Shown: piece by piece, positions 1 to 23,678 of the stretch
Numbering within the stretch: position 1 is the stretch's first letter
Layout of the letters: the number at the start of each line of letters is the position of its first letter
Assembly: GCA_905178155.1 (NCBI GenBank)
Contig: CAJINV010000002.1
Span: 3,911,838 to 3,975,837 of the forward strand
DNA from: Amoebophrya sp. A120
Taxonomy: Eukaryota > Protista > Dinoflagellata
DNA: 64,000 nucleotides
Direction: 5' to 3'
Translations under genes and position numbers: made by a program
Notes under the pieces: generated by a model
Told to the model about the DNA's origin: nothing
Databases searched by the model: none
Seen by the model: only the letters and a program-made list of their open reading frames with translations

Positions 1-3000
1 CTGGAAGATTGCCACGTTTGTCATGCATATTTTGAATGACCCATGATCTCTGTGATGCATGCCCTAGCATCACAGATTTTACGAGGCAGGCACGATGCCT
101 CTACCGCATGAGAAATGCCCTCCCCGCGTAGCACAAACTGGGGTCCTCTTGCTGGTCGTGCAATACAAATTTTTTTAGAATCCAGAGACAGCATCACCAG
201 TTTAGACTTTTCCAGACCCAGACATAGTTGCATTTGATAAACGAGTTGTGCCGGCAGTTTCGGGACTTGTTTTTCGAGAAAATAGACGACGGCAAAAACA
301 TGGGGGGGATAAACGACGGGATGAAGAAGAACCACAAGAACCAAAATGACGGCACGCGGCAGGCTGATGAACCAGAAGAAGAAGCAGGCGTAGAAGAAGT
401 AGAAACGACCCCGGACTGCCGGGATTTTGTGGACAGTTTCGTGTTCGGGGAAAGAATTGTGGACGACAAGAAGGACGTCGACCTGCGGATGTTGAACAAT
501 GGCGCTGCTGCAAGAACAGCAGAAAGTCCACTTCCTCGTGGACCACGAGATAGAAGTGGTAAAACGAGAACTTCATCTCCAGCAGCTGCCCGCGCGGCCC
601 CCACCAGTCGTGGATACCCATCATCTACTTCGCACCGGTTCTTGTACTACCCCCGGCTGAGTGCGTTTGGAAAGCGCACGTTCGAACAAACAGTCCTCAA
701 CCAGGAAGGCCATTCGTGGTGGGACGCCCCGAATCCGCGAGCCCCCTCCTTGGATCTGATTTCGAACCCTTTCCACGGCCGCCGCATCCGCCTGCCCGGA
801 GACGGAATCTTTATCCTGTGTGAAAACGTCCCCACCCCAGAGTTGTCATGATGCACATTTGCAATGATAGGAACGCTTGTAATGCGCTTCCCCATGAGCA
901 TGACAGGCATAGATATCCAGTCGTGTTTTGGCATTTATAATGCTGCAAACAGGATAATCAGATGGATTTTTGATGCGGTTGTCCTTGCTAACATGCACGA
1001 CACTACGGACTGCAACTTGTCATGCGTGACTCCCAAAACTTCTGGATTTGTGTTGCTAACTTGTCAACTTGGCTATGGGATGGGGACCTTTTTACTCAGG
1101 ATAAGCTTTTCGCAGTTCTCCTTGCGCAACCAGGACTTGTTTCAGGGTGACACGGTGCCGACCGGGAACAGCATCTTCCAGCCCTTTTGGGACTACCATA
1201 CGGCTCGTCTCACCACCACAGCGGGGGCGAAGAACAAAAATGAGCCGCCTGCGGATAAACAATCTTCGAAAACACCAGCGCGGCACTCTCATCTGTCTGT
1301 CTACCAGCGGATTCAACTGGCCTCGAATCCCGTGCGTCATGAGAAGGATCTACTGATTAAACTCGCGCGGAAAGATCCAATTGGGAGTGTGAAGTTAGCC
1401 TCGTTTCAGCTGCGAAACTTTGACCCGGAGTTTCAAAAGGCGGTACTGGAAAAGGACGGGCTGGCGTTGCAGTATATGGAAATCGCCCCGCTTTGCGCGG
1501 CGCGGCCATGTTCAAACGTTTTGTTTCTTCCGGACTATGTTGCTCCCGGTAGCTCTCGTGAGCAAATGGAAATGAAGAACAGCGCAGGTGGAACAAAAAG
1601 TAAAGCATTCTCCTTTATTCCGCGCGGCGCAGCTTCCGGTTCCGACCCCCTCCCAGGGCCGTCGTCGCCGTATCAGGTCGTCGCGCAGCAGCTTCCTCGG
1701 GATTTAGCTCTACTCGCGGTGAAAAGTAACGGCCTGGCGCTTCGTTACTTGTCCCCGGAACTGCGGGCCGACGCAGAAGTCGTGAAGATGGCCGTGATTC
1801 AAGACGCTGAGGCTTTGCAGTTTGCGCACCCCAGCCTGCGGGTCTACGCGCCCTGGGAAGGTGCGTTTTCCGACGCGGGGATTTGGCCGACGGAGCTGGC
1901 AGCTATTCCGGAGCGGGGATCATCTCAAGAACACCCGGGTGGAACATCACCCGTCGTCGCGGGCCGGTGGAAATTAAGCGGGAAACATCCACCCAATGCG
2001 AAGCAGATTGCGTTAAAAAATTCGGGGTTCGCAGTGCGCTACATGGGCCTGGACTTGGGCCACGATTACGACAGGTTTGCGAATCCGAATTGGCCGTCGC
2101 AGTTCTTGCAGGATGATAAAAAAGGCAAAGTTCCGCTTCCGCAACAATTGCTGTCCAACATTACTCACGTGTCCCGAGTTCGGGAACTACTAGAAAATGC
2201 GGTTGAAACGGATGGGGAAGCCTTGCGGTTTGTGACCGCCGAAATGGTGAAAAATCGCTTACTTTTCCCTACTCTGCAGGACTACTTTAACCTCTGCAAG
2301 GTGGCGGTGGAAGCGTCTGGCTTGGCGCTGAAACACGTGCATGTGCACATCCGGTTCCCCACGGTTGGCCGTCAGCTGACCAAAGCGGGAAATTCGAATA
2401 TTAACCAGGCCAAGAAAAAACGACAAGCTATCAACGCAGAACAAAGCAGAAGAAAGAACGCCGGGGGGCAGGAGGAGCAACCGGGAGATGCTGTTGGTTT
2501 TGATGTAGTTGACACGACAACTGGAACGATGTTGAAAAATGCTACTCAGAATACATCAGCGGAAGTCGAAGTTGTAGGCCACAACGACCAAAATGCGAAT
2601 GTCGATAAAAAGGAACAAGCCCCTTCGGAAGGGGCTTCCTTTTTAGGAACATCATCGACGGAAGGAGATTCCGCCAAGAACCAGATCGGTCGGAAGAACA
2701 AGTCGCTGTGTGACAAACTGGAGGCCGCCGGCGCACAGCACCAGAACTACTGGGACTTAGCCCTGCGCGCGGTCAAGCAGAACGGCTTTGCTGTCGAATT
2801 CGTGCGCCGCGAATGCCTATGCATTGCAAATTATATCTCCTCTGGGGCCTCTGAAAACTTGTGATGCTGAATGGTCATAATTGAACACAGCCATCCTAGT
2901 GCAGCCAAACATGACAAATATTTTGATCCGGCGCTCTTTAATGCGTAGCGCGCATTACAACAAACTGAGTTTTTATTGCATGACGCAAAGGGTCGTCGCA

Positions 3001-6000
3001 CTTTTGTTGGTCAAGCAACACAGATTTTACAGGAATGCCAGACAAGCAATACAAGTTCCTCTTTTCCAGACCCAGATCTGTATTTGCACTGCATAATGCC
3101 TCCACAAGGGGACGTCGTCCAGCGTGAGGACCAACAATGAGACGGACTATCTTATCAAACGCAAAAATGTCTGGGTCTGGAACAAAGCAACTTGTCATGC
3201 TAAATCTGAATCATGTAAAAATCTGTGTTGCATGATTTACCAAAAGTAGCTGTCCACTTTTGACCTAATCGAGAGGCAGTTTCTCATGCAGGATAGGCAT
3301 GATAGAACTCTCACAGAATCTGTCATGCTATGTCCTACATACCAGACCTCATGGGTCATGAAAAACCTGCATGACAAGTCTGGCATTCTTCCAGACCCAG
3401 ACACTTTTGCAGTTGATATATGTGTTTGCCCATCTTTTTCAAAGAGTCGCTTTAGTCCAAGCCCAGAACGCGGAGGTGGTGAAAAAATTCTACTCAACGA
3501 ACCTGAAAGACCAGTCGGGGTTTACCAAGGAAGTGACAGAATATTTACGGACCAAAATGTGGCTGGGGTCCAACGAGCTCGACCACTTATACAGGGGGGA
3601 GAAGAACAAGAAGAACGGGATATTAGAGAGCCTGGGCGGCGAGGACGTCCGCGAGTTGCCGAAGCAGTATCCGATTTGGTTCCCGCTTTTGGAGACCGAG
3701 AGAACCTATCGTAAGGAAAAATCTCCCCTCCCCATATCGAAAAGGCACGCCTCAGAGAATTTGCGATGCTGACTTGTGACCACAAGCCGCGTCTGTCTTG
3801 CAAGAAAGCAACGGCGTAGACTCCGCCCCATTATGCAGGCGGTTTGTAATGGTGTTGGTCCTGCTACAGCATAGACGTCCCTCATGCTAAGCGCCTAGGC
3901 CAAAACCTCTCTGCATTCATTGGCATGTTCTGGGCCTGCAGTCCTCTACTGCAAGACAAATCTGATTTGTGTACGCAAATCCAGCATCAGAAATTTCGTT
4001 TCGATGTGGGGAGGGGGAATTTTTCATTTTGATAGAACCTTGAGCGATATGCTCACCCTGGACCGCGTCGCGCGGCGCGTCCGGAAAGCGATAGTTCCCA
4101 AGGAAGAAACCAAAGTGATCAAGTTTTGGTACATGGACGATAAGGAGCAGGCGCTCGCGGAAAAGTTATCAGATGCAAATAGGTCTGGGTCTGGAATAAA
4201 CTTGTGATGCTGGGTGGCAATAATTGAGCATACTCCTGTGCGCGGCCAAGCATGACAAATTGTGAGGACGCTTCCTGATGCGTAGCGCGCATTAGAAATT
4301 GTGCTTTCGCATGACAAAACAGGGTTCGTTTTATTTGCTGGTCATGCAATAAAGATTTCTCAGGAATCTACACACGCAATACAAGTTCCACTTTTATTTC
4401 GGACTCAGACATATTTGCAATGCATAAAAGCTAGAGAACTACAGTGTGGAGCTGGCCTTTGAGCGCCGGTTTCAAAAGCCGGGCGGGGGCAGCAACGGGG
4501 TGAGAACAGTAACTACTACTGACCAACATGGAAGGACAACTCAGACGACTTACCCGGAAACGCTGCCACCCGCGCCGGTGCACGCCTCGGAGATGCGCGG
4601 GGACCAGATTATCGCCGGGGCCGGAAGCACGCGCTGGACCAGCGATGGCACCCGCGTCGCGGACCCACTTTGGACTCACAACATTCAATTTCTAGATTAC
4701 AGTGAGAAAAGGCGACGTTCCGGGAAGAAAATTCCCTGGTTTGCTAAGGCACAAGAAGGGGTGGACGAGGAGGTGGACCATGTTGACGATGAAATAGATT
4801 CAGATTCACGAGGTGGAGCTGCACCAGGTCCGGCCCAGGGGCATACGCATCGCAAGTATAGTCGAAGCTCTCGATCTGAAAGATGGCAGCTTTGCAAGAT
4901 TTTACGTATTTGATGATGCATGTCTGATAGTGTGCTGTGTTCAGCTCTATCATGGATTGGCACGAGATCATGTATCACTTAAGTAGATCCTCTTGTCGTT
5001 GTCTGCCATAAACGGAATTTATTCGAATTGGAATGTTGTTATGCCAACATGATGCGGAAATAAAATGTGCAACGCATAGCAGCCCAAGAAAACTACGCGT
5101 GCTGATGAGTGACTGTGTATTTTTTGCAGTCCTCCTATCAACAACAGAATTTGCAGTTCAGCATCACATCTTTCCAGACCCAGACGTATTTTTTGCAGTT
5201 GATAGACCCCGCCGGCGGAGCTCCTGTAGCTGGCTCCGGGGTCGCTGGACCACCAGGAGGCGCTGCACCAGGGGGAGCCAATGCTGGTTTGTTGGGTCCA
5301 AGCGAGGACCCAAATAACAAAAACAGTAAGATTAAGCCCTTTCTGGCCGGCGGCGGCGGGAACTACAATGAGTCTGGTAGAGAGCTCTTAACGCGGCCCT
5401 CCGCAGGACAGCAGCAGCAACAACAGCAGGAACTCGAACTCCAGCAAGAAACCTGGACACTGGTCGTGTTTGCTTCCACCTTGGGGGTACTGGGTGTCAT
5501 CGTCCTCACGGTCTGGCTGACGGGCGCGTGTGGGCGACTGGAGCGCGAACAGCAAGAATGGAAGCGTGCGAAGTTGCGAAAACAGCTCTTACGCAAAATG
5601 AAGAAGCTGAAGGCCAAAAAATTCGCGTTTGGCAGCGAAGCACAGGCGCCGGGCTTCGCGCAGTATCAGGAAGGGAAACGGAGGAGAAAAGGCCAGCAGG
5701 CGAAGATAAGAGCCCTGTCGGAACCCGTTGATAATAATTTTTTGCAGCCCAGGAGCACCGTTCGGGGAGCAGGATCCGGCGCTGGAGAATATAGTAAGGG
5801 CATATGGATTGCAAATATGTCTGGGTCTGCAAGATTGCAACTTGTCATCGTAAATCTAAATCATGCAAAAATCTGTGTTGCATGAGTGCCAAAAGCTGTC
5901 CACTTTCGACCAAGTTGGGAGGGAGTTTCTCATGCAGGACAGGCATGACAGAGACCTCACAGAGTCTGTCATGCTAGGTCCCGCATTCCACGCCTCATTG

Positions 6001-9000
6001 ATTATGTAAAACCTGCATGACAAGGCTATACTCTTTCAGACTGAGACATATTTGCACTTGATAGGGGAGTAAGAAAGCCAGCGCTTTCACCTCCACGTCC
6101 TCCGGCGTTTCACCGATCAAATATCACCACTTTGACGCCTTAGGAGCTGCTTCATCGGGGGGCGAAGATGGTTTTAGTAGTACTTCGGGAGGACCTGGTT
6201 CAGCATCATCATCTTCCCAAATGACGGTGGCATCACAACGTCCATCCCAAGTGCGCCGCACGGTCACGCGGACGTCGTCCGCTCCCGGGTTTTTAGAACA
6301 ACAGCAGAAGTTATCAACTGCAAAAATGTCTGGGTCTGGAAACTTGTGATGCAACGAAGGGAATAGGGAGCTCACTGTAATGCGCTGCCAAGCATGACAA
6401 GTTTTTTTCATGGTTCTGAGTTGCGTATTCCGCATGAGAAACTGCGTCTTTGCATGACAGGGAGTAGGAGCTCTTCGCGGCCACGCAATAAAGAGTTCAG
6501 AGCCATGCGAGGATAGCATGACAAATCTCGGAATCTTCCAGACCCAGACACTTTTGCATTTGATAGAAGTCATCTGCCACGGATACAACTCCGGTATCCT
6601 GTGCAAAAGTATCGTACTCGTACTAATTGCAGACATGCATTACAAATTTTTTTCTGAAGCTAAATCCGCATTACAAATTTTATTTCTCATGCTGAGGAAA
6701 TTTGTAATGCAATTTATACTAGTACGATACTTTTGCACAGGATATCCGGAAAGCGGCTACGAGTCCCCGCGGGAGCTGCGGCCGAGCCCGCAACAAATTG
6801 AGCAAGACCAGCGGCTGCTGCGGCGGGGGAGTTCGGGGCGGCTAGGTGGGAGTGGGAATACAGGGGGAGCTTCTAGTGCCGTGCCGAAGAAGAAGAAGTA
6901 CCTGCACAATGTGCAATTAAATCAGCAAATGGTGTTGACCCCCGGACAGCACAATTTGGATGAGCGGGAACACAGGAGTTTGTCACCCCCGCTGGAGCTT
7001 CCGGACGACGTCGTTATTCGGCCAATCGGTGGGGGGCGGAAGCCGAAGGGAATGGTAACCAATAACAACGTATTAGTACAACGACCGCAGGGCATTGGTG
7101 GACTGGCGTTGGCGGACCGTGGTGGCATCTTCGACATAGAAGAAGACGCAGATAATCTGGTGATCAAGCCTATCGGATCGCAGAAGGAGAAAACCAGCGC
7201 GCTTTTGTCCTCCTCGGGTTCTTCCGCTATTGGTACTGCTGTTCTTCCCACTAAAATCACGGTCGGCTTAAAGAAAGGCGACGTGGAAGGTACCACTACG
7301 GGCGAAAATAACGCTATCAATGTTTCAACATCGGATGAAAAAAAGCGACTTACAAGTAGTCCTGTAACGACTATGCCCCAAATTCCGCCGATGCCCTCGT
7401 TGAGTACGCTCGGGCCGGGATCTATCAAATGCAAAAATGTCTGGGTCTGGAAGAATACAAACTTGTGATGCGCATCTCAGAACACAGAAAAATCTCTCAT
7501 GCATAGGAAGCAAAAGTTGCCCACTTTCTCTCACCAAAATGGGGGAGTTGTCATGCGGATTCGGCATTGCGGAAGCCTCTCGAAACCTGTGATGCTAAAG
7601 CTTCCATGCCAGACCTTTTGTGTCATGCAAAAACAGCATGAGTCTTCCAGACCCAGACATTTTTACAATCCATAGGATCCTCGTCCGGCCTACAGGAGTC
7701 GCCTTCTACCAAGAATAGTGCTGGGTCGTCGGCAGCATCTTCGGCGCAGGATATTAATTCGCAGGAAAAAAAGAGGGAGGTAATTTTGATACCTGAACTA
7801 TCCGGAGACGGCTCTACTTCCTACCCGAGCACCGCAGATTCCGCCGCGCAGAAACAACAGAAGGCGAGCAAGAGTCCTCCGGGAACGACGAATAACGCGG
7901 CCTCTCCGCCCGCGACGTCCTCTCCGCCCGCGACGGCCTCTCTGGACAAACCGAATACGGACGACCCGGGACGAGCTTCTTCAGTTGTCCTGCCGTCCTC
8001 CCAGCAAGACAAGGACAACGCAGTTTTGATGCCCAACGATGACAATAAATCCGGCAAAGCAGCCGAACAAGTAGAGCCAGCGGAGGCCCAGAATCTGAAC
8101 ATCTTTAAAAAGTTGAATGCACCCCGCGGTCGCACCTCTGCAGCGGGGCCTACCGCCTTACTAAACTGAAAAATGTCTGCAGCTAAAAAAATCAAAATTT
8201 TTGTATCCTACATTTTCGGGCGCCTGCTTGTGTGTTTATTTTTTTTCACAATGAACAAAAATCAAGGAAATGGCTAGGCCAGGTATTCCGGCAAGGCCTC
8301 GGCGGACGAAGCAGAGGAGACAACTCAGCCACCGGGGGACTCGGTACGTCGGTATCGGTGGACGTCGTCCACCCGGGTCCGCAGTTGTAGTTCTTCAAGT
8401 TCTCACACTCCCTCCTGCTTCCTGACGATTTACCGAGTGCGTGCCTTGTTTGAGAATGGGTTGAATTTGCTGAAGAAGAGGCTCGCCTTTGGTTTAAACC
8501 TCGCGGCCTCCGAGGAGGTCGAAGAGGGGATGAGCTCAAGTTGCAGGCTTTTGCCTGCAAATTGAGCCCGATACAGGTCGGGGCCCTGCGAAAAGGGCGG
8601 CCGCAAATTGTCGCCCCGGAGGTCCGCGGCTCGGGACGACTCCGAAGAGGTGTCCAAGGACACCTCATCTGGAGGCCAATTTCGGAGGTGCAGACATTTT
8701 TGGCGGCGCAGACAAACACGAGCTATCAGCCTCACTTTCCCCCCCCCTCGCCAAAAACGTCTGCACCTCCACTTGGGGACCTCAGTGGAGAGGTGCAGAC
8801 GTTTTTGGCGGAGCCACGTTTTGCGTCACAAATCTGAACCCTCACAGCACGGCATTCTGCCGATTCAGGAGCTCAGATTTGTGATGCGGTCCAGAAAGCT
8901 GACCCAGAACGGGTCACAAGAAAAGGCCATTTGTAATGCGAGACCTGCATTACAAATTGCCACTTTTGGCGGGAGGGGCTTCACGCCCAAGTACCTGGCT

Positions 9001-11915
9001 GAGGTTCGCGGCATGCTGGACAGGAGCATGACCAAAGGAACTACTTCCAGAACAAGAAGCCTGAGGACTAGGGCTTGGGCTGACTACTAGGGGGCCTTCA
9101 AGCTCGCGCGGGAGCTTCGACCAAACGACGCAGCGGGAATGGAGCACAGCACCTCGGTCAAGTTCCCCAGCATGGAGGCCACGGCGCTCACCAGCGCGCT
9201 GCAGTCCGGGCGAGAAGAGAAGGGCGCAAACTGCACTACCAAAAATTTTGATTTTTTTTGCTGCAGACATTTTTCAGTTTAGTAACCTCGTGGTCGCACC
9301 TCTGCAGCGGGACCTACCGCCTTGAGTCCCTTCGCGAGGCTGCGAGAAAATAACAAGAACTCGAGTGTATCCTGAGCAAAAACGTCCCCACCCCAGAGTG
9401 ATAATGGGGATCTCGCAACACAAATCCAGAAGTTTTGGCTGTAGCGCATGACAAGTTGCCGTCCGTAGTGTAGGGCAGGTTAGCAAGGTCATCCGCATTA
9501 CAAACCCGACTGCTCATCCTGTTTACAGCATCACAAATTTCAAAACACAATTGCAAATGCCTTTCATGGGGATGCGCATCACGTGTTTGCTTGTCCTTGC
9601 GAATCTGCATGACAACTATGGTGTGGGGACGTTTTTACTACGGATAGAGTGCTGCAGTTGGTGGCACAGGAGCAACATCTGCCGGAAAAAATACTTCCGA
9701 CCCGTCAGCGTCTGTCACAAGTGATATTAAAGGACCCCAACGACCGCAGCCGCAGCAGTATAATGTTGTGCAACAACACAACTTCAACATGGCAGGAGCG
9801 CCTGTTGCACCCCCCGGCGGGATGTTGATGGGCGGTCCGAATGCGATGCCGGTCGGAGGTCCAGCTAGTACAACAACGATGGGGAACTACAGTACGAGCG
9901 GGGCAGCTACAGGTGCACTAAACAGTACTTCTAGTAGTAGCGGCTCCACGACCATGGGGAGCAGTTCTCATGCCGCACGGCCACCACTGCCTACTCCCAT
10001 CATGGCAAATCCTCAGTTGTACCACCACCACCACCAACCTGGGAAAGGGGGGCAACCTCCCGCAGGCAAGCCGATGATGCAGCAAGTTGGGTTTTCGAAG
10101 GATGGCAGGCCGTTGTTCGCTCCTGTGCCGGTTCCGGTGTACAATGGGACAACTCCCGCGGACAAGATGATTGGAAAAGGGAACATATCCTGAGTAAAAA
10201 CGTCCCCGCCCCAGAGTTGTCATGCAATTCTGCATGCCAAATTCCAAAAAAGTTTCTCATGCGGAGCCCCATGAGAAGCATTTTGTATTCGTAGTTTGGA
10301 ACTTCAACCTGTGATGCTAGAATCAGCATGCCATGCTAGATCTGTGATGCTTCTGAACTAGCTAAACAGGATTACACCACGAGGGCAAACTTGTCATGCC
10401 AGACAACCAAGGCTGACTGATTTGGCTAGCAGCTTCCCCATCTTGCCACTGGTTAGGGGACGTTTTTAATCAGGATAGAAAAAGAAACCCGCGCTGGTGC
10501 CGCAGCTTCCCCCGATCGTCCCCTTTCTCGGGCCGGACCGAACTGGGCAGCCGATGACGGCAATCATCGAAGAGAGCGAGTCCAGTAGGAGTAGAAATAC
10601 AGCAACGGCGACAAGCACGATGGTGCCTACTAATAGCAGAAGCCGCGGTATCACCAGAAAAAAGTGTTACAGTTACACACTTGTTGGAGTTTCTGCATCA
10701 CAAATTTTCTCTGTGCGGCACAGAAAACTTGTAATGCGAAGATCATAAGGGAAAACAGGAAGGAAACGAGGCTCCCAAGCATTTCCTGCATGAGAAAGGT
10801 TGTCTGTGTTGCCGGTCTTGCAACACAGTGTGTAACTGTAACACTTTTTTCTTCCGATACGCGGTGGGGACGAGAATGATCCAAATAGTGGACCTATCCT
10901 GAGGAAAAACGTCCCACCCCAGAGTTGTCATGCAAATCTGCATGCCAAAAAAGTCTCTCACGCGGAGCCCCATGAGAGCCACTTTCTAGTCGTGTTTTGG
11001 AATTTGTGATGCTAGAATCAGCATGACGTGCTAGATCTGTGATGCTTCGGAACTAGATAAACAGGACTACACTTCTACAAGGACAAACTTGTCATGCGAA
11101 ACAACCTAAGCTGGTTGATTTGTCTAGCAGATTTCCCATGTTGAGTCTGGTGTGGGGACATTTTTACTCGGGATAGGACTCTCATCGGCAAACTCTTCTA
11201 TGGACTTCGCCAAAGTTGGGGCGAGCCCGTATGGAAGAGATGGTGACGACGAAGACGATAGCAAGTGTAAAAATGTCTGGGTCTGGAAGAATGCAACTTG
11301 TGATGCTGTATTTAGATTCCAAAAAAATCTGTATTGCATGAGTAGCAAATGGAATGCAACTTTTGCTACGCTGAGAAGGCATTTGTCATGCGGAATAGGC
11401 ATCAAGAAGCCCTCAAAAAATCTGTATTGCTAGGGTATGCATCACAGACATCATGCCTCATGCAAAACGTGCATGACAAGTGTCAGAATCTTCCAGACCC
11501 GGACATTTTTGCATTTGATAGACGATCAGTCCCTCAGCCTCAACGGGCATCAGGACCCCATGGACGCGTATGAGGAACAGATGGAGGTATCCTGTGCAAA
11601 AGTATCGTACTCGTACTAATTGCAGTTATGCATTACAAATCTTTTTCGCAAGGCAAATCTGCATTACAAATTCAATTTGTAAAAACGCTGAGTAAATTTG
11701 TATTGCAATTTCTACTAGTACGATGCTTTTGCAATGCATAGGAGGCGTTCAATGCGTATTACCAAGCATTGGAAGATTTCGGTCGCGAGGAAAATCTCGA
11801 GAACCCAAGTGGATTTTTATCCTCCGAAACTGAAGAAGAATACGAGGAGGCGGATGAAGATTTTTCAAGGGAAGCAGAGCAAGGACGGCCCGGCGCCCCA
11901 CCGGGTTCCTCGTGA
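1..11915 (+). CDS. Large multi-exon protein with DUF4116-type repeats, one TM helix and a long low-complexity C-terminus (5' end outside window)
   Basis: Repeats such as LAVKSNGLALRYLSPELRADAEVVKMAVIQDAEALQFA and AVKQNGFAVEFV; TM segment WTLVVFASTLGVLGVIVLTVWL. One frame runs to TGA 11913-11915 after removing 18 TIR elements plus one TSD each: <1-239, 812-1103, 2818-3095, 3153-3418, 3707-4034, 4167-4426, 4844-5204, 5803-6063, 6312-6565, 6595-6744, 7423-7674, 8159-9284, 9368-9646, 10186-10477, 10649-10859, 10895-11175, 11259-11520, 11588-11740. Confidence 0.75.
812..1103. mobile_element. Introner, family C (TIR TATCCTG(A/T)GTAAAAACGTCCCCACCCCAGAG)
   Basis: TIRs at both ends, flanks atctt/agctt, removal keeps frame (GIFSQFSLRNQ). 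Relatives at 9368, 10186, 10895, 28714, 35431, 40533, 43459, 48123, 62236. Confidence 0.85.
3707..4034. mobile_element. Introner, family D (TIR TATCGTAAGGAAAAATCCCCCCTCCCCATATCGAAA), about 310-340 bp
   Basis: TSD gaacc/gaacc, frame restored (ETERT|LSDML). Relatives at 33256, 34377, 39059, 44272, 45648, 47659, 49593, 58226. Confidence 0.85.
6595..6744. mobile_element. Introner, short family B (TIR TATCCTGTGCAAAAGTATCGTACT), about 145-175 bp
   Basis: TSD tccgg/tccgg. Relatives at 11588, 14743, 20920, 21917, 29046, 35833, 49956, 51888, 53111, 56071. Confidence 0.85.
8159..9284. mobile_element. 1126-bp TIR element (TACTAAACTGAAAAATGTCTGCAGC...) flanked by a 38-bp direct repeat of exon sequence
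   Basis: About 45-bp imperfect TIRs; flanks 8121-8158 and 9285-9322 match at 35/38 positions. Confidence 0.85.
10649..10859. mobile_element. Introner, minor family (TIR TATCACCAGAAAAAAGTGTTACAGTTACACAC)
   Basis: TSD cgcgg/cgcgg, frame restored. Confidence 0.8.
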
Positions 11916-12865: not shown

Positions 12866-15800
12866 ATGCCCCGTCAAATTACGCTCCTGGTGGGGCCGCC
12901 GGGGTGCGGCAAAACGACCGTTGCCCCCCTGTTAGCGGTATCAACTGTAAAAGTGTCTGGGTCTGGAAGAATTCATGTTTGCAGAATATATTAACTAGCA
13001 ATATGACACATATTAATCAATATGACATTTGGCAACGACAACGCTCCGAAACCCAAAAAAAGTAGCAATCTCATATTGTTATACTGTCATATTGTCATAT
13101 AGCATATTGCTCATGAGGGCCTCGCGCATGAAAATTGGGGCCGTCCGAGCTGCTTGCGGACTATACGGCCACTAGGACCGTGCGCGCCGTTGTGCAGTTG
13201 TTCGTGCAGATACCGCGCAGATACCCACTAGGCGCCTCCTAGGCTTCTCTCCCGAGCATGGTGGCAACGCCCTACAGCGTTGGGCGCACTCCTCGCGCGG
13301 TATTGCTGGCACAGGCACTGTCTCTGCCGGTAGCGGCCCGACTGCGAAGTCATGCACTAGGCTGTCGCTGGCACAGCATCATCGCACCTTGCTTTTTCGG
13401 GAACTATTCCCGCGCCCGACCACCTGGCTAAGTAGCTTTGTGCTAATGATAGTCTTGCTGTTTATGAGGGTAGCGCATCTCGTAATCACAGCAAAACTAT
13501 GCCAAGCCACACTGATTTTTGAGCAGTTTCCGTGTGTTGGTCTCCTAGGAGGCCCGCGGCGACGAATGGGCAGCCGGGGCGAAGACTTTTCTTCGTAAAG
13601 CAGCAACAGGGTGACCGACGGTGAGGCTATCGACCGCCCGGGGCGTTTTCGCCAACGAATTAGGCGGGGAGCGAAGATGTCCTGCCACGGCATGCGACAA
13701 ACGCTGCGCGTCAGGTCATCTCCCGGTCCCCGAAGCCGATGACTCCGGTCATATTGCTCAAAAATCCGCGGTCATATTGACATATTGTAATATTGTCATA
13801 TGTCATATTGTGAAAAGTGCCCGAATTTTGCTAGTTAATATATTCTGTGTTTGTCATGCTTGTCTGGCATGACTCTTAGTCATGCACGTTACCCAAGAGC
13901 TCCGTTTTTCTGTGATGCAGAAGCGCAGTTTGTCATGCAGAATAGGCAACACCTAGGAGCTCAGAAACTTGTCATGCTGAGCCAGCATTTGTAGTCTCAT
14001 CATGAGACGCTACCCAGCATCACAAGTTTCCAGACCCAGACATTTTTGCATTTGATAAGCGGAAATGTTTGACCGACCACTGCTGGAGTTGGAGAAGCTG
14101 ATCCAGAAGGAAATCGCCACGGGGTCAGAATCCGGGCAGTACCTGAAGCTCTGCAAGCTGCAAAACCGAACACCAGACGACGTGACGCTCATGAACCTGT
14201 TCCGAAACGAAATCTTAAACAACTGTCCCCTCGGCTGCTTCCTCTGTGACTACCCAGTCACGCTGTCACAAGCGCAGGCGCTGGATAGGTACAGATGAAA
14301 TAGTGTTTTAGGATTTTGCTTTAGTAAGTTGTCCTCCTGCATAGAACATTGGGGAAAGCGTAAGTATTGCTGCGCAGCGCGATTGATGCGCATCTGATGT
14401 TTATGCCAGTCGCAGTCTTGGACCTCGTCTGTCATGCGCCAATCCCAATCCACATTATGTGAAAACGAAAACGCTTTGTTCCACCACCACCTCCACGCAG
14501 GTTTTTGATCGGTTCCGGCGACAGGCAATCGCTGAAGGTGATCAACCTGACCGCAACGGACGAGGTGTGCGAAGCGAGACTACGGGAAAGATGGGTGCAC
14601 TTGCCAAGTGGGAGGGTTTACAACAAGGTCAGTTTCCCGCCCAGCAGTATGGCGTCCGAAGAACCGGCGATGCTGGACGATGTCAGTGGGGAGCCCTTGA
14701 TCCAGATGGAAAAGGACGACAAACTAGTGATCCCGAAAGAGCTATCCTCTGCAAAAGTATCGTACTCGTACTAATGGCTTTTATGCATGACAAATTTTTT
14801 TCTTAAGTGAAATCCGCATTACGAATTTCATTTGTAATGCTAAGTCAATTTGTATGGCAATTTCTGCTAGTAGTAGTACGATGCTTTTGCAATCCATAAG
14901 AGCTCTTCAAGTACCATTTGGGCTGCGAGCCACAGTTGAACCACTTCGGCAGATACGAAAAAGTCGACTGCCCAGCGGAAAAATCCGTCAAGGACATCGT
15001 ATACATAGAGAAATTGGGATTATTTTTGTGTGATTTGCGTTGCATGTTGCAGCGTCAGGAACAAATAGGAGGATGTTTTGTGCACATGATGCAAAATCTT
15101 CAACGAAGTTTTTGAACTTTATCTTCTTTACCCCTACTCAGGTAACCGAGTGCGCCTTCATCCTGGTAAACTCCACCTTCATATCGATTGCACCTATGGC
15201 TGCTGCGTCTGGAAAGTTGTAATGCTAGAAGTGAACGAGAACGATAGAAGCACTGCAATACGCAGCCAAGCGTGACAAATTTTTGGTCAGCTTTGTGTTG
15301 CGTATTAATTTCGTTTGGCAAGCTGCATTGTTGCATGACAGGCAAGCGGGCCTTTTCGTGCGCATGCATCACAGTGGCTCGAGCTCGAGGCATGTCCGAC
15401 ATGCATGACAAATCTAGCAAGCTTCCAGACCCAGACTACATATTTGCATTTGATACTTCGCAAGACAGCTGACCTTCGCCGAGCGAAACGCCGAAGCCAT
15501 GGGCAACGCGCCGCTGCCGATAGTATCGGACGCACCGGTATCAAATGTAAAAATGTCTGGGTCTGGAAGAATGCGCGATTTGTCATGCAGCTTTTCCATG
15601 ACCCATGAGTTCTGGAATGCAGGACCTAGCATGACAGATTCTGTGCGATCTCTCTCATGCCTATCCTGCATGAGAAACTCCCTCCCGACTTGGTCAAAAC
15701 TGGACGACTTTTGGTAATCATGCAACACAGATTTTTGCATGCTTCAGATTTAGCATGACAAGTTGCATTCTTCCAGACCCAGACATTTTTACATTTGATA

Positions 15801-16383: not shown

Positions 16384-18092
16384 CAGCGCCGGGTGCGTCG
16401 GCAAGCTGCTGGTTTGTTTTTTGCCGAGCTGTTGATATTTTCTTTCGCCGGCCCGAGGAACAAGTGTGTTCGAAAAGAAAGTTTTGGAGCCGTCTTTTGG
16501 TTAGCGCGGCTAGCTGTATGAGGATAGCTTCATTCACATAGACCGCGGCCCCTGAAAAACGAGACGCAGAAGTGCCCACGTGCGGCGACAGTTGCAGCAC
16601 TGGCGCCGATCGTGGGCCTTTCGAATCCCAGCCGCGAGCGGAGCCCGCGCCGAAGCAATGCCACCCCCGACGCCCAACCCGGGCGGCTGCTTGCTCTCCC
16701 ATGTGTTTCGCTAAGGACACGGGAGCAAGACCCGGCCAACGCACGGGGCCCGGCCGCGGGCTGGTGTGCTCCTCCTGTGGCGCCTTTCGCCGATGAGGCC
16801 GAGGGACGCGCCGTACAGCGCCGGGCTTTGGAATTTGGACTTGGCCGAGGAAGCGGACGCGAAGGGCTTGAGCGCCCCGCCGGCCTTCGGTTCCATCGCT
16901 TCCGAAAATCGCTGGCGTGATATCTCGGACAGGCGCCCGGGGTGCTGTACGCATTGCAACAAACCGGCGCCGGCTAGTCCCTGCGGGGATTGCCGGAGGG
17001 GGGTGGCTTCTTGGTGCGTGGCGCACAAGATGGGCAAGGGCGGGAACTTGGTCCGGCTTTCGGCGGCGTCGCAGCCGGGCCGGCGCGGCTTTTGCCTTCG
17101 CCCGGCTTTGCAGCCTCGCCCCCCGCTGCAAAAGGGGAGCGGCGAGCGCCTTTCCGTGTGGCCCCTGCCTGGCTATTGGTGGCGACGGGCGCCGCCCTAT
17201 GCCCAAGGGACGGAGTTGGCCGCCGGCCCGGCCTAGGGCGGGCGCGCATTGGCTGCGCTCCTCCGACGACGTCCCAAAGTGGGCGAGCCCGCAACGACGG
17301 AAAGCAAAGCCGTACGCAGGTGCGCGGCCTGCTAGGCTTACCGCGAAGAGAGGGGGGCGGCGGGGGAAAGGCTGCGCCCTGCCCCTTGCCCCAGCGGCGC
17401 CGGGGGGTCTCTCCCAGCCAAACAGTGGCCCAGTGGAGTGCAGAAGTCGCCCCACCCCCCGCCCGGGGGGGCGCGTGGTCCTTTGCTTGCGGAGTGCGTC
17501 CGCCGGGCGTTGTTGCCCTGCCTCCCCTGGGCCGCCAAGCGGGCCCCCGCCGCCCCCGCCGATTTTGCAGCTATGGGTGGCCAGGGCGGCCCGGTGGATG
17601 CGTATCTTCTGTTGGGGCGCCTTGCTTGGAAAAAGGACGGACCTTGGAAGCAGAGGCAGCCCGGGCCATTCGCCGTCTCTTTTCTGACTCTCGCGCTGTC
17701 GGCGTACGTAGGTGCGTGCGTGTGTGAGCGCGCGGGCTTGCAGCATGATGTCCAGTGCGGCGCAGGAGCTGCCACGGTTACATTTCGTGTGTATTTATTT
17801 TCATTGAGGCGGCCCTCTCGCTCTCTTGGCTGTGGTTGTGGTGTGTTTTGTGTGTGATTGTTTTTGATGGGTGCCTGTATCTAAGAGTGGAGAGCCTGCT
17901 TGAGAGGCAAAGTGGCACATCAGCGCATCAAACGGGAGGCAGTAGAAAGAAAATGTGAGCGGGTCGGCGCAAATGCTAATGCGAGCGAATTGCAATTCCC
18001 CGTTTTGTTCATGACAGCGATCTTGTACTTGCATGTTGGATATGCAGCAGCTACATTTCTATCCATGGTCTATTGATGCCATAGACCAACTG
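16384..18092. mobile_element. Intergenic GC-rich decayed element (possible TA-flanked CAG...CTG element)
   Basis: Abrupt GC-rich island with broken frames and CxxC remnants (CTHC...CGDC); ends ta|CAG ... CTG|ta; hairpin tggtctat-N7-atagacca near the right end. Confidence 0.4.
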
Positions 18093-18151
18093 TAGAGCTT
18101 CGCAAGCTCAATTTTCCCACGACCCCGGGGATCTTCCCCACCAGCAAGATC

Positions 18152-21100
18152 ATGGACCCTCCCCTGCCCTGGCGCGGCCGGCTCCGCACGGCGAACACGC
18201 TCTACGAGCTGGAAGAAGCGTCAACGACCATCGGTCGCGACCCGCAGAACGACCTGGTCCTGGATTCCCGGGGGATTTCCCGCTTTCACGCCATCCTCAC
18301 CTTTACCAACACCAGCGGACCCTGTTTGACCGACAAGGGGTCGGCCAACGGGACGTTTGTGAACTCGCACCGGTTGGCGAAGGACACGCCGTTTCGGTTG
18401 AACCACGGCGACTTTATCTTTTTCTCCGCGTACGAACGGACGCACTACAGGTTCGAACTCCCGGATGGCGATCTGAACAGCAGCAACATCCTCGGCAACA
18501 TGCCGGAGTACGTCACCCCGCCCGCGAAGGAACCGCTGATCACAGGCGGGTTTGAAGACGCGCAGGAGATCCGGAAGCGACAGCAGTACCTGGGGGTCGA
18601 AAACTTGACCAACGTCGACCACCGCATGGTCACGCCACGGCAACCCTTCGTGGGGGAAAACTCGAACTCAAGGAACAAGATTTACTACGGGAAAAACGAC
18701 GAGCAGAGGAGAGGACCACAGAGTGGCACAGCTGCCAGAACTAGCGTTAATGCTGGTCGTCGGAACAGCAGCAGTAGCGGAATGCTGGGCGGTGGTGGGG
18801 GAAACAACTACATTGAGGAGGAGGAGGAAGACGAAGGTATCAAATGCAAAAATGTCTGGGTCTGGAAGGTTGCAACTTGTAATGCTAGCTCTCCAGCATA
18901 CCGAGGAAATCTGTACTGCATAGCAAACAAAAGACGCAGCCTTTTTTGTACATGCAAAAACTCATTTTGTCGTGCGGATTTCCTATCAGAAAGCGTTCTG
19001 AAAAGTTGACATGCTGTGTTGCATTCGGAACTGTTTCCATCATCCACATTTTAGCAACACAAGTTTCCAGACCCAGACATTTTTGCAATGCATAGAAGGA
19101 AACACTTATCAAGACGACCTCTCCGATATTCGTGCTGAGCAGGCGCAGAACCGGATGAGTCAGCGACGCGCAAGTGCAGGAGGAAATAATAGAGCTAGCG
19201 GCGTGCAGCAGACCAGGTTAGACGCAGTGGAGAAGCGGTCGACGTCCACGTCACGGGCGATGCTAGGGGGCCGACGAAATAATGATGATGAAAACAACAA
19301 CGACCTCGAGTTCGAAGACGGGGGTTTTAAGCCACGGAGCAGTAGCTCCACGAGTCTGCGAAATTACAACGCGATGATGAGAAATGACGATGGAGCTGCT
19401 GATCCTGCAGCCAACAGCGACGACTGGTCGAGTAATCTGGTGAAAAAGAAGTCTATCGCAACCCCCCCGGCAGTGAAGGAGAGGCTGGATTTCTTGGAAA
19501 AGAAACTTTTAGAGACGGAACGGGAGAAGGAGGTGAGTGATGTCATGAATCAAAGCGGGTCCGCCCGCGAAGGAGTTGTTGTACCAGGGGCGAGAGAACA
19601 TCAAAGCGGCGCTGTTTCCCTGTCTGGGTCGGGGTTAAACAGGAGCAACAGCGCCGGCGGCACGAACAACTTCCCCGAATCCGGATCGGCCGCAGGATCT
19701 GCCGCGGCTTCGGGCGGCGGCGGAGGTTTTAATATTCTCGGCGGGTCTGGATCTGGGTCCGGCGGAGTTCTCGTGCCGAATACTGCAAGCAACCCTGCAG
19801 ACCTCCTAGAATCCTCAACGCTGTTGCAGAGCCCGGATTTCGTGACGGACGTCCACACCCTGCAGCGCGCCTTGGAAATTCTTTCCCGGATTGGGCGGGC
19901 AGTGACAAAAGGCTACTCTTCCGCGGCGTCGCAACAAGTAACACCGAGGTTGTTCAACACGACTGTTGGAGCCGCGAACAATAATCTTCAAAACGACGTG
20001 ACCATGACAAACGCGGGAGATGAACAATCAGGCAAGTATGCCGCGGAAGATCATGCCGTTGCGAAAACGTTAAACCGGACGGATTTTTTCACGGCCTCAA
20101 TGCTGGATACAAACATGTTTCAGCAACAACAGCAGAATGGAGGTGGTACAGGTAATATTTTCAACACGACGCCGAGAAAAAAGCTCAACATCGACAAGGC
20201 GCGAAAGGAAGAGGAGCAGGATCTGCTGGCGGTTCTGGCGAACTTTTTCCGGGGCAAGAACGAGGATTCGAATAATCAAGCAGCAGTGCAGCCGATTGTC
20301 CCGACAATTTTGAACACGACAAAAAAACTAGAAAAGCTGTTCCGCGAGACGAAAACCGGCCAGGCGTTTCTGCAAGCCATGTTGCAGGACGAAAGTAGAA
20401 CTGCAACTGGCTCCAAAATGATAACGACCGGCGATAATTTTGATACAGCAGGAAATAATCTTCAAATGAACGCGGCTCAAAGCGAAGAGGAGTCGGATTT
20501 GTCGTTTGGGGACGAGGATGGAAACAATTCGGACAACGACGACCTGGAGAATTTATCCGATAATTCCGATTTCGACGAGGACCGACAAAAGAAACTGCAA
20601 AGGATCCGCCGGAGCCGCGGGTATTTGACCCAACTCGTGAAACAGCAGGACATTGAGTTGTCCGAACTCCGCAGTAGGGCGAATTTTTATCAGCAGCTGT
20701 TTCCGGATGGCGGACCCGCGACGGGAATGAAGGCCAAAAACTCACTCTTAAAAGCCGACAATCTGACCGCGTGGCGTGACCGGATCAACAACGGCGGTGT
20801 AGCAGCTACTACAGGAGCTAGTACTGCAACCGGCGGCCCGGCTCTGCAGAGCTTGAATAACGGGATGCTGCAGCAACTGGAAACCGACCAGTTGATCAAG
20901 CTGTCCTACCTCTTAGAAATATGCATTGCAAAAGTATGGTGCTCGTACTAGTTGCAGTGCAGCATAACAGATCTCGTGTCATAGCTAATTCAGCATGACA
21001 AATTCCATGCTTCCTACTTCTGGAGAAATTGCGAATTATGCTACTTGTTCTACTAGCACGATACTTTTGCAATGCATAAGCAAACCAGCTGACCAATTCC

Positions 21101-23678
21101 ATCGCGAAAGAGCAAACCAACGAGAACAGCCGGCACTGGAAGCAACTTTTGCTAGAATCCGAGTTTTTCAAGTCCCGCATTTTCCGCGCGCAGCAGAATC
21201 TGAAAAATCTCCGGGCGAAAAACCAGGTGAACGCGAAGGAGGTGTTGGCTCTTACGCATGAGAAAAAAGCATCTTCGCACTAAGGAGCACCAATTGCATA
21301 TACAAACTTTTTCAGGCTGTTGAAAGACATCACAATGTGCCATACTAGATCAGCATCACCAGGTAGCGCAAGACATTTGTCATGCTGTACTACTGCAGTT
21401 AGCACGATATTGCGATGATTTTCCATAGGATAACGCTTCGGAGTAAACAGTACTCGGAGGAAATGGAAGTCGAGGGGATCTACGCAAACGCGGAGGTGGT
21501 CGGCGAGAGCGACCGACAAAGGGCGCGGAACAACTTTAACTTGGAAGAGGAGCAGCAGGCCTTTTCGTTGAAACTGTCAGACGAAAACGAGAAGTTGGGG
21601 AAAATGAAGGAGTTCGTCTTGCAGGAAAAATTGCGGCTCCAGGAAGCAGAGGACTTGGTGTTCAACGGATCTTACGCAAGTGTAGAAAGTTTTTCAAGTG
21701 TAATATCGCTGTCGCTGTAATTTTAATTTGCCATGCAGATTCAGGTTCAGATACGCAGGGCCCGCATCTGTAGTCCTGCATGCGATGCCGCTATAGTACG
21801 ATCTCGATATTACGAGTCCAACTTTTGCACTGGATAGATCTACTGGAGTGTCATCAAGCGCCACAACTACGAGTACTACAGCGAACAATGCAGAAAATAA
21901 CCTCCTCCAGCAAACTTATGCATTGCAAAAGTATCGTAATCGTACAAATGCATTACAAATTTCCTCAGCGTAAGAAATAAAGTTTGTAATGCTGATTTGC
22001 CTCAAGAAAAAAATTTCTAATGCGTGATTGCAATACCAATACGAGCGCGATACTTTTGCACAGGATAGAACTTCTCTCCTAGCGATTTCGAACCTTCTCG
22101 AGGAGATCAAAAACGCGGGGACGTTGTATGATCTGCTCAAACGTTACAATCTCAAACGTTCCAATAGAATCTGGGATGTGTCTTGCATATATGAGCATGA
22201 CAGACTCGCAGACCATTCCACTTTCTGCAGCACAGATTTCGGCACATTTTTGTAGTGCGGTTTGGGGCTCCGGAACTTGTCATGCGCAGTCCTATGAGAA
22301 TTGGCTAGATCATGCACCTCTTGCATCACAGATTTCCAAATTCTATTGCAACGTTTGAGATTGTATCGTTTGAGCAGGTCATACGTTGGAACGGGTGGTC
22401 GAGCTGGAGAACTGCGCGCGGTTTCTGTACTGGAAACTGCTCCACTTGGAGAAAGCGACGCGGAACGCAAATCGGTTGACGGAATTTCAACTCCGGGAGC
22501 AACAGCAGCAACAGCAAAATGACATCCTGAAAACGAAAGACAAGGACCCGCTGTCCGCACGGGCGAGGCGAAAGCAGACAGGATGGAATTTGCAGGAGCG
22601 GCTTTTTGGAGGCGATCCCGTTGGGGGAAGTAGTACAACTGGGAAGAAGTTTTTGAAGCTGAAGCCCTCCGCAGTTCCTCCGGTACCGAAAACGGTGCAG
22701 GACGTAATTGGAGTGAACGTCCAGGAAATTGTCGCGAACCATCGGAGTGCAGCTCCTTCGTCAAGGCTGCGCGCACCAGGACCAGGTTCGGATCAAAGCG
22801 GCACGAGAAGCGCACCGACTGGTGGTGCAGCGAACAATGCAAGCAAAAGTAGTATCGCAAACAACAGTAACTCCAAACGCATGGAGGATTGCATTGCGGA
22901 GGCGCTGAGACAGCACAACGTCGAGCAAGCCCGGATGTTGAAGCAATTGTGGCGGGAGAAGGAGACGAAGGAAAAGCAGCTGAAGGCGGAAAAGGAGAGA
23001 CAGGTAAGTACGTATTGTGGTGCGTTTGCCAGCATGAGATAAGTGAGGTCTTGTACAAGTTTTGCATGAGAAAAAGCTGTAAACATCCCTTTAAATAAAA
23101 CCTGTCAGGAGCAAGAAGCCGCGACCGCGCGTGCGAAGAAGGAGGAGGAGGCCCGACTGGAGCAGGAGCGGATTAACGCGGGCAAATCGGAGTTGGACGC
23201 CGCCTTTTTGGAAAACGTGAACGGGAAGTCCATGTTTGGCGTGAAATTCCACTCGCAAAACGTGAACCCAAACACCATGGTGTCGTCCTCTGCGAGTGGG
23301 AATGTTGTGATGGAGGAACAGCAAGAACAGCAGCAAGTTTCATTCCCCTCAGGAGGTGGTGGACCCGTACTACCCGACTTCAGTAACAACGTCAAAAATC
23401 TCACCGTTGGCAGCGCGGCGAGCTTCCTGCCGGGCGACCAGAAACTCCAGCTTACCCCTCGAGGGGCGGGCTCCTCGTCGGTACAAAACACGATCCGGGG
23501 GCCCCAGGACTTGAACAGTTACAGTCGGAATCTGCATGCGAGGATGAACAACTACAACGACCCAGTTTTCGCGGACGGGACGAGTGCGAATTATGAACAA
23601 CCGGAGGATTTGGAAGATAAGATACGGCACCCGCAGAAATACGTGCCGCAAATTCTGGTGGAGCTGCCAGATGATTGA
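18152..23678 (+). CDS. FHA-domain protein with coiled-coil and low-complexity regions
   Basis: FHA motifs TIGRDPQNDLVL..ISRFHA..DKGSANGTFVN. Introners 18838-19094, 20920-21078, 21253-21432, 21673-21836, 21917-22067, 22127-22383; GT-AG intron 23004-23108; stop 23676-23678. Confidence 0.85.
22127..22383. mobile_element. Introner, family G (TIR TATGATCTGCTCAAACGTTACAATCTCAAACGTT)
   Basis: TSD cgttg/cgttg, frame restored (GTL|ERVVELE). Confidence 0.85.

What the first reader, a model, noticed from the sequence alone, without database searches (positions are those of the whole stretch)
8121..9322. TIR element with a 38-bp target duplication whose three mismatches are all synonymous
Seen: the 1126-bp element (TAC...GTA ends, TIR core AAAAATGTCTG shared with family A) is flanked by 38-bp repeats instead of 5 bp. 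The differences ccc/cct, cgc/cgt and ggg/gga are all silent third positions. 38 = 5 + 33, so removing either element+38 or element+5 keeps frame; the latter leaves a tandem 11-codon duplication (GRTSAAGPTA twice). Inference: both copies may be translated, so a long-stagger insertion would create both an intron and a peptide duplication. Three sites is a small sample.
Basis: partly seen in the sequence, partly recalled or inferred. Interest (0 to 1): 0.85.

Follow-up and report, generated by a model that had tools for sequence, protein, structure and literature searches.

The report
Transposon intron that duplicates eleven codons
In a parasitic dinoflagellate, a jumping element flanked by an unusually long 38-base repeat is missing from a likely RNA-derived contig except that the repeat stays doubled, adding eleven amino acids to the predicted protein, and this accident likely shows that the organism's odd introns are cut at a fixed distance from their hairpin rather than at their repeats.

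Summary
Observation confirmed: a 1126-bp TIR element (8159-9284) sits between 38-bp repeats (35/38 identical); it is the only such case among 77 elements in the window, where 5-bp duplications are the rule. The window is Amoebophrya sp. A120, whose TIR 'introner' introns are known. A spliced contig from a probable RNA run lacks 8158-9288 (element + 5) at a junction with no ambiguity, and the deposited gene model carries the 11-residue unit twice. So intron plus peptide duplication is supported. One of the three 'silent' differences is the last intron base and is not translated, and the synonymy alone is weak (p 0.04-0.11). The larger result: because no 5-bp repeat blurs this junction, it fixes the cut at 1 nt before and 4 nt after the hairpin. 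That single register, applied to all 17 elements of the gene, reproduces 2092 residues of the gene model without a difference; the five other registers fail. The cut ignores a 38-bp repeat, which argues against repeat-guided excision and RT slippage. How the 38-bp duplication arose (one-off aberrant transposition or family-specific long stagger) is unresolved.

The parts
8121..8158 (+). Left copy of the 38-bp direct repeat; 8121-8157 exonic, 8158 is the first intron base
   Evidence: junction
8159..9284 (.). 1126-bp non-autonomous TIR element, TAC...GTA ends, multi-copy family, no Pfam match in 7 internal ORFs
8159..8203 (+). Left terminal inverted repeat, 45 nt; unchanged in two family copies that are 90% identical inside
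9240..9284 (-). Right terminal inverted repeat, 45 nt, one mismatch to the left arm
8684..8814 (.). Three internal TIR-like motifs forming short inverted repeats (possible extra transposase sites; inferred)
8158..9288 (+). Non-canonical intron, 1131 nt, TT..CT ends, cut 1 nt before the left TIR and 4 nt after the right TIR; junction cannot slide
   Evidence: run X3 contig, depth 96, 'both' = 0
9285..9322 (+). Right copy of the 38-bp repeat; 9285-9288 intronic, 9289-9322 exonic
8125..8157 (+). First translated copy of the 11-codon unit
9289..9321 (+). Second translated copy of the 11-codon unit
246..11915 (+). 3' part of the host gene (last 2092 residues of the 4712-aa gene model P0001, CAD7933174.1), interrupted by 17 TIR elements; DUF4116 match upstream, one predicted hydrophobic stretch, low-complexity tail holding the duplication
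7423..7674 (.). Neighbouring ordinary introner, 5-bp TSD, removed as element + 5 (control)
9368..9646 (.). Neighbouring ordinary introner, 5-bp TSD, removed as element + 5 (control)

Best explanation
This is a TIR transposon-derived intron whose removal (element + 5 nt, seen in a likely RNA contig and in the gene model) leaves both copies of a 33-nt unit in frame, and the cut sites are likely measured from the ends of the TIR hairpin (1 nt upstream, 4 nt downstream) rather than from the flanking repeat, while the 38-bp duplication likely arose from a one-off aberrant transposition. Shown: the anatomy, the junction, the doubled 11-residue unit in the gene model, and the fit of one register to all 17 elements of the gene. 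Inferred: that the hairpin is the ruler; that a modified spliceosome does the cutting (the register puts the TIR's invariant T at intron +2 and enriches AG at the 3' end); that the element first made an ordinary 5-bp duplication and one end then re-inserted 33 bp away on a sister chromatid, or two copies 33 bp apart recombined; and that the allele survived because 33 is a multiple of three and the region is low-complexity.
For:: contig of run X3 (3381 nt, depth 96, 0 other letters) skips 7418-7674, 8158-9288 and 9363-9646, each element + 5; the focal joint has 0 letters that fit both sides, the two controls have 5. P0001 has the unit twice; keeping 4 bases of the left flank copy at all 17 elements gives 0 differences in 2092 residues; keeping 0, 1, 2, 3 or 5 gives 5, 5, 2, 2 and 3. 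Informative sites: 812 (at least 2), 3153 and 10186 (at least 4), 10895 (at most 4), 4844 and 8159 (2-4). In one search the contig also runs through 10185 unchanged, so TSD position 4 there comes from the left copy; at this register 15 of 76 ordinary elements end in AG (background 7%, p = 2e-4), 29 of 76 start GT (p = 0.04), and it is the only register giving GT-AG introns (5 of 76). TIR unchanged over 45 nt in 2 of 2 relatives at about 10% internal divergence; 4 of the 5 intronic flank bases match the 38-bp model, 1 of 5 the model of a 5-bp TSD in an older tandem repeat. Origin: 76 of 77 elements lack a long repeat; duplications ending at transposon termini with unmatched TSDs are described for Ac/Ds and P (PMC3744419, passages).
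Against: RNA support is one assembled contig from a run whose kind is a guess; the three raw RNA runs laid 94, 3 and 0 reads, none on the exons, so read-level replication and minor isoforms are untested. The gene model was built from transcript alignments (PMC7789003 section 25), so it is not independent of RNA assembly. The register rests on one gene, six informative junctions, and the left end of the degenerate 4844 element was chosen by fit to the protein. Farhat et al. describe splice sites as variable relative to the hairpin. At register 1, 26 of 76 ends read AG, but the A is fixed by the TIR and the G is not enriched (p = 0.15). For origin: the long-repeat element is also the only member of its family in the window (7 of 78 elements are singletons), which leans a little towards a family property. 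Zero non-synonymous differences is not significant.
Confidence: 0.6

Rival explanations
1. Same splicing, different origin: this TAC-ended 1.1-kb family normally makes long, perhaps variable, target duplications, as IS1549 and IS1634 do in bacteria; only insertions with (repeat length - 5) divisible by three persist in exons.
For: The repeat abuts both TIRs exactly. The only long-repeat element is also a family singleton in the window (7 of 78 are) and has atypical TAC ends. IS1549/IS1634 make 8-514-bp repeats (PMC2266710, passage). L002 has a 59-bp repeat ending at its TIR.
Against: It shares the TIR core and internal motifs with families that make 5-bp duplications. The L002 repeat's partner lies 1 kb away on the same side, which insertion into an older duplication explains trivially. 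No copy with both flanks was available.
Confidence: 0.28
2. The 33-bp tandem repeat existed first; the element inserted at its junction with an ordinary 5-bp TSD whose intronic bases then decayed.
For: The host tail is low-complexity and has another short tandem repeat at 7898-7942; one degenerate element (4844) has only 2 of 5 TSD bases left.
Against: It needs 4 of 5 intronic bases to change (p about 1e-4 at the window's 7% TSD mismatch rate) and, by chance, to match the 38-bp register at 4 of 5, while the TIRs stayed 98% matched.
Confidence: 0.05
3. The junction is a reverse-transcription slip across the strong hairpin (a falsitron), not splicing.
For: Hairpin plus direct repeats is the falsitron signature (PMC8240250, passages); no direct RNA data were seen.
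Against: The joint has no microhomology and ignores a 38-bp repeat; unspliced RNA would stop translation three codons into the element; one register fits 17 elements.
Confidence: 0.04
4. The repeat or the element's position is an assembly error.
For: No DNA reads were laid on the locus.
Against: The spliced contig carries both copies with their distinguishing bases and 0 other letters, and a 158-nt contig matches the element interior exactly.
Confidence: 0.02

Closest known systems
Amoebophrya A120 introner elements (Farhat et al. 2021, PMC7789003; abstract, sections 10-12, 16, 25, 32 and supplementary figure legends read; figures not seen)
   Same: Same organism by the source name of P0001; inverted repeats at both ends, three bases + seven + A-run motif, non-canonical ends, repeated, no transposase found.
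   Different: 38-bp instead of 3-5-nt repeat; TAC instead of TAT; 45-nt arms; 1131 nt, above the paper's 40-1000 bp window; changes the protein. The paper calls the borders variable or unknown; here one register fits.
Aureococcus sp. introners that add four residues (Gozashti et al. 2022, PMC9860276; passages read)
   Same: Intron gain that leaves duplicated target sequence in the mRNA.
   Different: There a family trait with element-borne splice sites adding 12 nt; here 33 nt, purely host sequence, non-canonical ends.
Alternative transposition / hybrid element insertion of Ac/Ds and P (PMC3744419; passages read)
   Same: Direct duplication ending exactly at transposon termini, with unmatched short TSDs on the two sides.
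   Different: Those examples are kb-scale, experimentally traced and not introns; no progenitor or reciprocal deletion is available here.
IS1549 and IS1634, long variable direct repeats (as summarised in PMC2266710; passage read)
   Same: TIR element flanked by a long direct repeat.
   Different: Bacterial, autonomous, shown over many copies; here one copy and no transposase.
Euglenid nonconventional introns (as summarised in PMC11282704; passages read)
   Same: Cut sites set off from a terminal stem, with the 3' arm further from the cut than the 5' arm.
   Different: Offset 2 nt there (pairing +4..6 with -8..-6), 3 nt here (+2 with -5); unrelated lineage and no shared motif tested.

Membership tests
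Amoebophrya A120 introner element | Inverted repeats at both intron ends | tested here: met
   45-nt arms, 98%; longer than the 8-20 nt described
Amoebophrya A120 introner element | IR starts TAT, seven bases, then at least three A | tested here: not met
   Starts TAC, then seven bases and five A; 75 of 77 window elements start TAT
Amoebophrya A120 introner element | 3-5-nt direct repeat at the borders | tested here: not met
   Flanking 5-mers match at 1 of 5; repeat is 38 bp
Amoebophrya A120 introner element | Removed from RNA at non-canonical ends | tested here: met
   TT..CT joint in X3 contig (run kind guessed) and gene model
Amoebophrya A120 introner element | Repeated family | tested here: met
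   Second copy of the right end in X3 (16 other letters, 3 gaps over about 405 nt); L001 and L002 at 90%
Amoebophrya A120 introner element | No internal transposase | tested here: inconclusive
   0 of 7 internal ORFs hit Pfam at E 0.1; remote homology not tested
Long variable-DR elements (IS1549/IS1634 type) | Long repeats of varying length at several copies | not testable with these tools
   No genome held; both other copies are cut by contig ends
Long variable-DR elements (IS1549/IS1634 type) | DDE transposase gene | tested here: not met
   No Pfam hit
Alternative-transposition duplication | Duplication endpoints at element termini, short TSDs unmatched | tested here: met
Alternative-transposition duplication | Progenitor allele or reciprocal deletion | not testable with these tools
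   No orthologous locus found (cluster of one)
Falsitron (RT artefact) | Junction inside a direct repeat at the hairpin base | tested here: not met
   0 shared letters at the joint
Falsitron (RT artefact) | Absent from direct RNA sequencing | not testable with these tools
   No such run listed

The most novel reading that the evidence does not exclude
All Amoebophrya A120 introners are cut by a hairpin-measuring machine at a fixed -1/+4 register, blind to sequence and to the direct repeat, and a TAC-ended family that makes long target duplications exploits this: each surviving exonic insertion becomes an intron and writes a tandem peptide repeat into the protein, a direct route from intron invasion to the fast, low-complexity protein evolution of this parasite.
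Probability: 0.22. Interest if true: 0.85.

Novelty: new variant of a known kind. Interest (0 to 1): 0.62.

Why it matters
How Amoebophrya removes tens of thousands of non-GT-AG introns without a detected U1 snRNA is an open question, and the 5-bp duplications hide the true cut sites. This locus is a natural mutant without that blur. It gives a precise rule (-1/+4 from the TIR stem) that anyone can test genome-wide with existing RNA reads at mismatched TSDs, it argues that these introns are real rather than RT slips, and it says the repeat is not what guides excision. It also shows one way an intron-making transposon can lengthen a protein.

Tried and rejected
No whole genome is held, so the family's flanks could not be tabulated. 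Raw RNA runs X9-X11 did not cover the exons: no test. No listed holder is on record as RNA. Read-level replication, DNA confirmation of the locus and junctions in other genes by reads were not obtained. TIR search: 2 loci in metagenome contigs, each with one end only; 0 in viral contigs; those loci are not searchable as genomes. Protein searches for an empty orthologue or for gene models of other window genes found nothing (P0001 at 4712 aa was outside the length range); the representative search returned only the organism's own model, a cluster of one. Element versus plasmids: no match. Rfam: 9 hairpin-type matches, all far below gathering. The repeat copies fold no better than shuffles (z 0.02 and -0.24). 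The 59-bp repeat at the L002 TIR was considered as support for long TSDs and set aside. A PDB comparison at the GTPase junction failed on frame and was not repeated. Earlier-findings look-ups by place, sequence and Amoebophrya words were empty. Literature: searches showed no paper stating a fixed register or a long duplication for these introns; figures S19-S23 and Fig. 3 of PMC7789003 could not be seen and may bear on the register, and subscription papers are not searched.

Full report
Observation. The sequence is as described. An element of 1126 bp (8159-9284) has 45-nt terminal inverted repeats with one mismatch and is flanked by 38-bp direct repeats, 35 of 38 identical, that touch both ends exactly. 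The three differences are third-position transitions in the host frame. The window is full of related TIR elements: 72 others were picked, 48 with a perfect 5-bp duplication, 23 with 4 of 5 and 1 with 3 of 5. That scan required a 5-bp match, so I repeated it without the requirement: among 410 TIR-like end pairs only this one has a long abutting repeat, apart from one 7-of-8 chance match.

Context. A search with the upstream exon returned one protein, P0001, 4712 residues, 100% identical over the query, named by its source as an Amoebophrya sp. A120 gene model. Introner elements with inverted repeats and 3-5-nt direct repeats are described for this organism; the paper reports no detected U1 snRNA, calls the splice sites variable relative to the hairpin, marks the border position as unknown, and analysed only introns of 40-1000 bp (PMC7789003).

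What RNA shows. In run X3, whose kind is guessed as RNA, one contig of 3381 nt at depth 96 matches the exons with no other letters and skips three elements, each as element + 5: 257, 1131 and 284 nt. The two ordinary joints can slide by five bases. The focal joint, 8157 to 9289, cannot slide at all. The intron therefore begins 1 nt before the left TIR and ends 4 nt after the right TIR, with TT..CT ends. No joint for element + 38 was listed, but contigs drop rare forms. Depth over much of the element interior is zero, as expected for spliced RNA. The three raw-read RNA runs laid 94, 3 and 0 reads, all partial and on repeats, so they are no test. P0001 carries RGRTSAAGPTA twice.

The synonymy argument. 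Base 9288, the right-copy partner of the first mismatch, is the last intron base. Only two mismatches lie in doubly translated sequence. Chance of all synonymous: 0.043 for three, 0.11 for two. As a control, mismatches in ordinary TSDs, where one copy is intronic, fall at codon positions 1, 2, 3 in 8, 8 and 11 of 27 cases and 17 of 27 change the residue (frames inferred from the longest open run). The contrast goes the right way but the RNA, not the synonymy, carries the conclusion.

The cut register. If the -1/+4 cut is general, TSD positions 1-4 come from the left copy and position 5 from the right. Splicing all 17 elements in the window's part of the gene at that register reproduces the last 2092 residues of P0001 with no difference; the other five registers give 5, 5, 2, 2 and 3 differences. 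Six junctions are informative; one of them, 4844, is degenerate and its left end was chosen by fit. The gene model was built from transcript alignments, so this is RNA evidence at second hand. Independently of any annotation, this register makes 15 of 76 ordinary elements end in AG against a 7% background (p = 2e-4), 29 of 76 start with GT (p = 0.04), and is the only one that yields GT-AG introns, 5 of 76. Register 1 shows AG in 26 of 76, but its A is the fixed last base of the TIR and the G is not enriched (p = 0.15).

Mechanism, inferred. The TIRs fold into a long terminal stem and are unchanged over 45 nt in two relatives that differ by about 10% inside. A cut that ignores a 38-bp repeat and uses a site with no shared letters is not repeat-guided, which also argues against RT slippage, where junctions lie in direct repeats at the hairpin base (PMC8240250). 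The simplest reading is a ruler from the stem. Because the register places the TIR's invariant T at intron position +2 and favours GT and AG, I think a modified spliceosome is the most likely agent; that the +2 U is the most conserved 5' splice-site base is recalled knowledge, and an endonuclease-ligase route is not excluded.

Origin of the duplication. An older tandem repeat plus an ordinary TSD would need 4 of 5 intronic bases to change (p about 1e-4) and to match the 38-bp register by chance, so the duplication is tied to the element. Two routes give the same sequence: a one-off aberrant transposition or recombination between two insertions 33 bp apart, as known for Ac/Ds and P, or a family that makes long duplications, as IS1549 and IS1634 do. 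76 of 77 elements lack a long repeat, but this element is also one of 7 family singletons among 78. Two family copies were found in a public contig set, both cut by contig ends. I put the one-off route at about 0.6 and the family trait at about 0.28.

Comparison and verdict. It works like an A120 introner but fails two listed features (TAT start, 3-5-nt repeat), so I file it as a variant. Introners that add residues are known, four in Aureococcus. My searches found no statement of a fixed register or of a long duplication for these introns, though figures of the main paper were not visible. The finding is real; its value lies more in exposing the hidden cut site than in the three silent changes. 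Interest 0.62.

Noticed in passing
L002:49-420 and 1442-1500: A 59-bp coding-like repeat ends exactly at the TIR of the family copy; its partner lies about 1 kb away on the same side and is interrupted by an ordinary introner with a 5-bp TSD. A satellite-like stretch lies between. Insertion into an older duplication would explain it.
   Followed up: partly
window 12939-14057: Ordinary introner with a nested element of about 870 bp that has CAG...CTG ends and an apparent 6-bp target duplication; a different transposon type inside an intron of an adenylate-kinase-like gene (name from recalled motif).
   Followed up: no
window 62236-63987: 1752-bp introner carrying GC-rich tandem arrays of 86-200-bp period; far above the usual 262-bp median.
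   Followed up: no
window 4844-5204: Degenerate element with a TAC left end and only 2 of 5 TSD bases left, still removed at a register of 2-4 in the gene model.
   Followed up: yes
window 29191-29205 and 6566-6594: Micro-exons of 15 and 29 bp between adjacent introners; the first is in a gene that looks like a DRG-type GTPase (name recalled, not tested).
   Followed up: no
whole window: The long spliced ORFs that read like genes are on the + strand, in line with the unidirectional gene clusters reported for this organism.
   Followed up: no
window 18077-21280: FHA-domain protein (PF00498, E 2e-20) with several introners.
   Followed up: no
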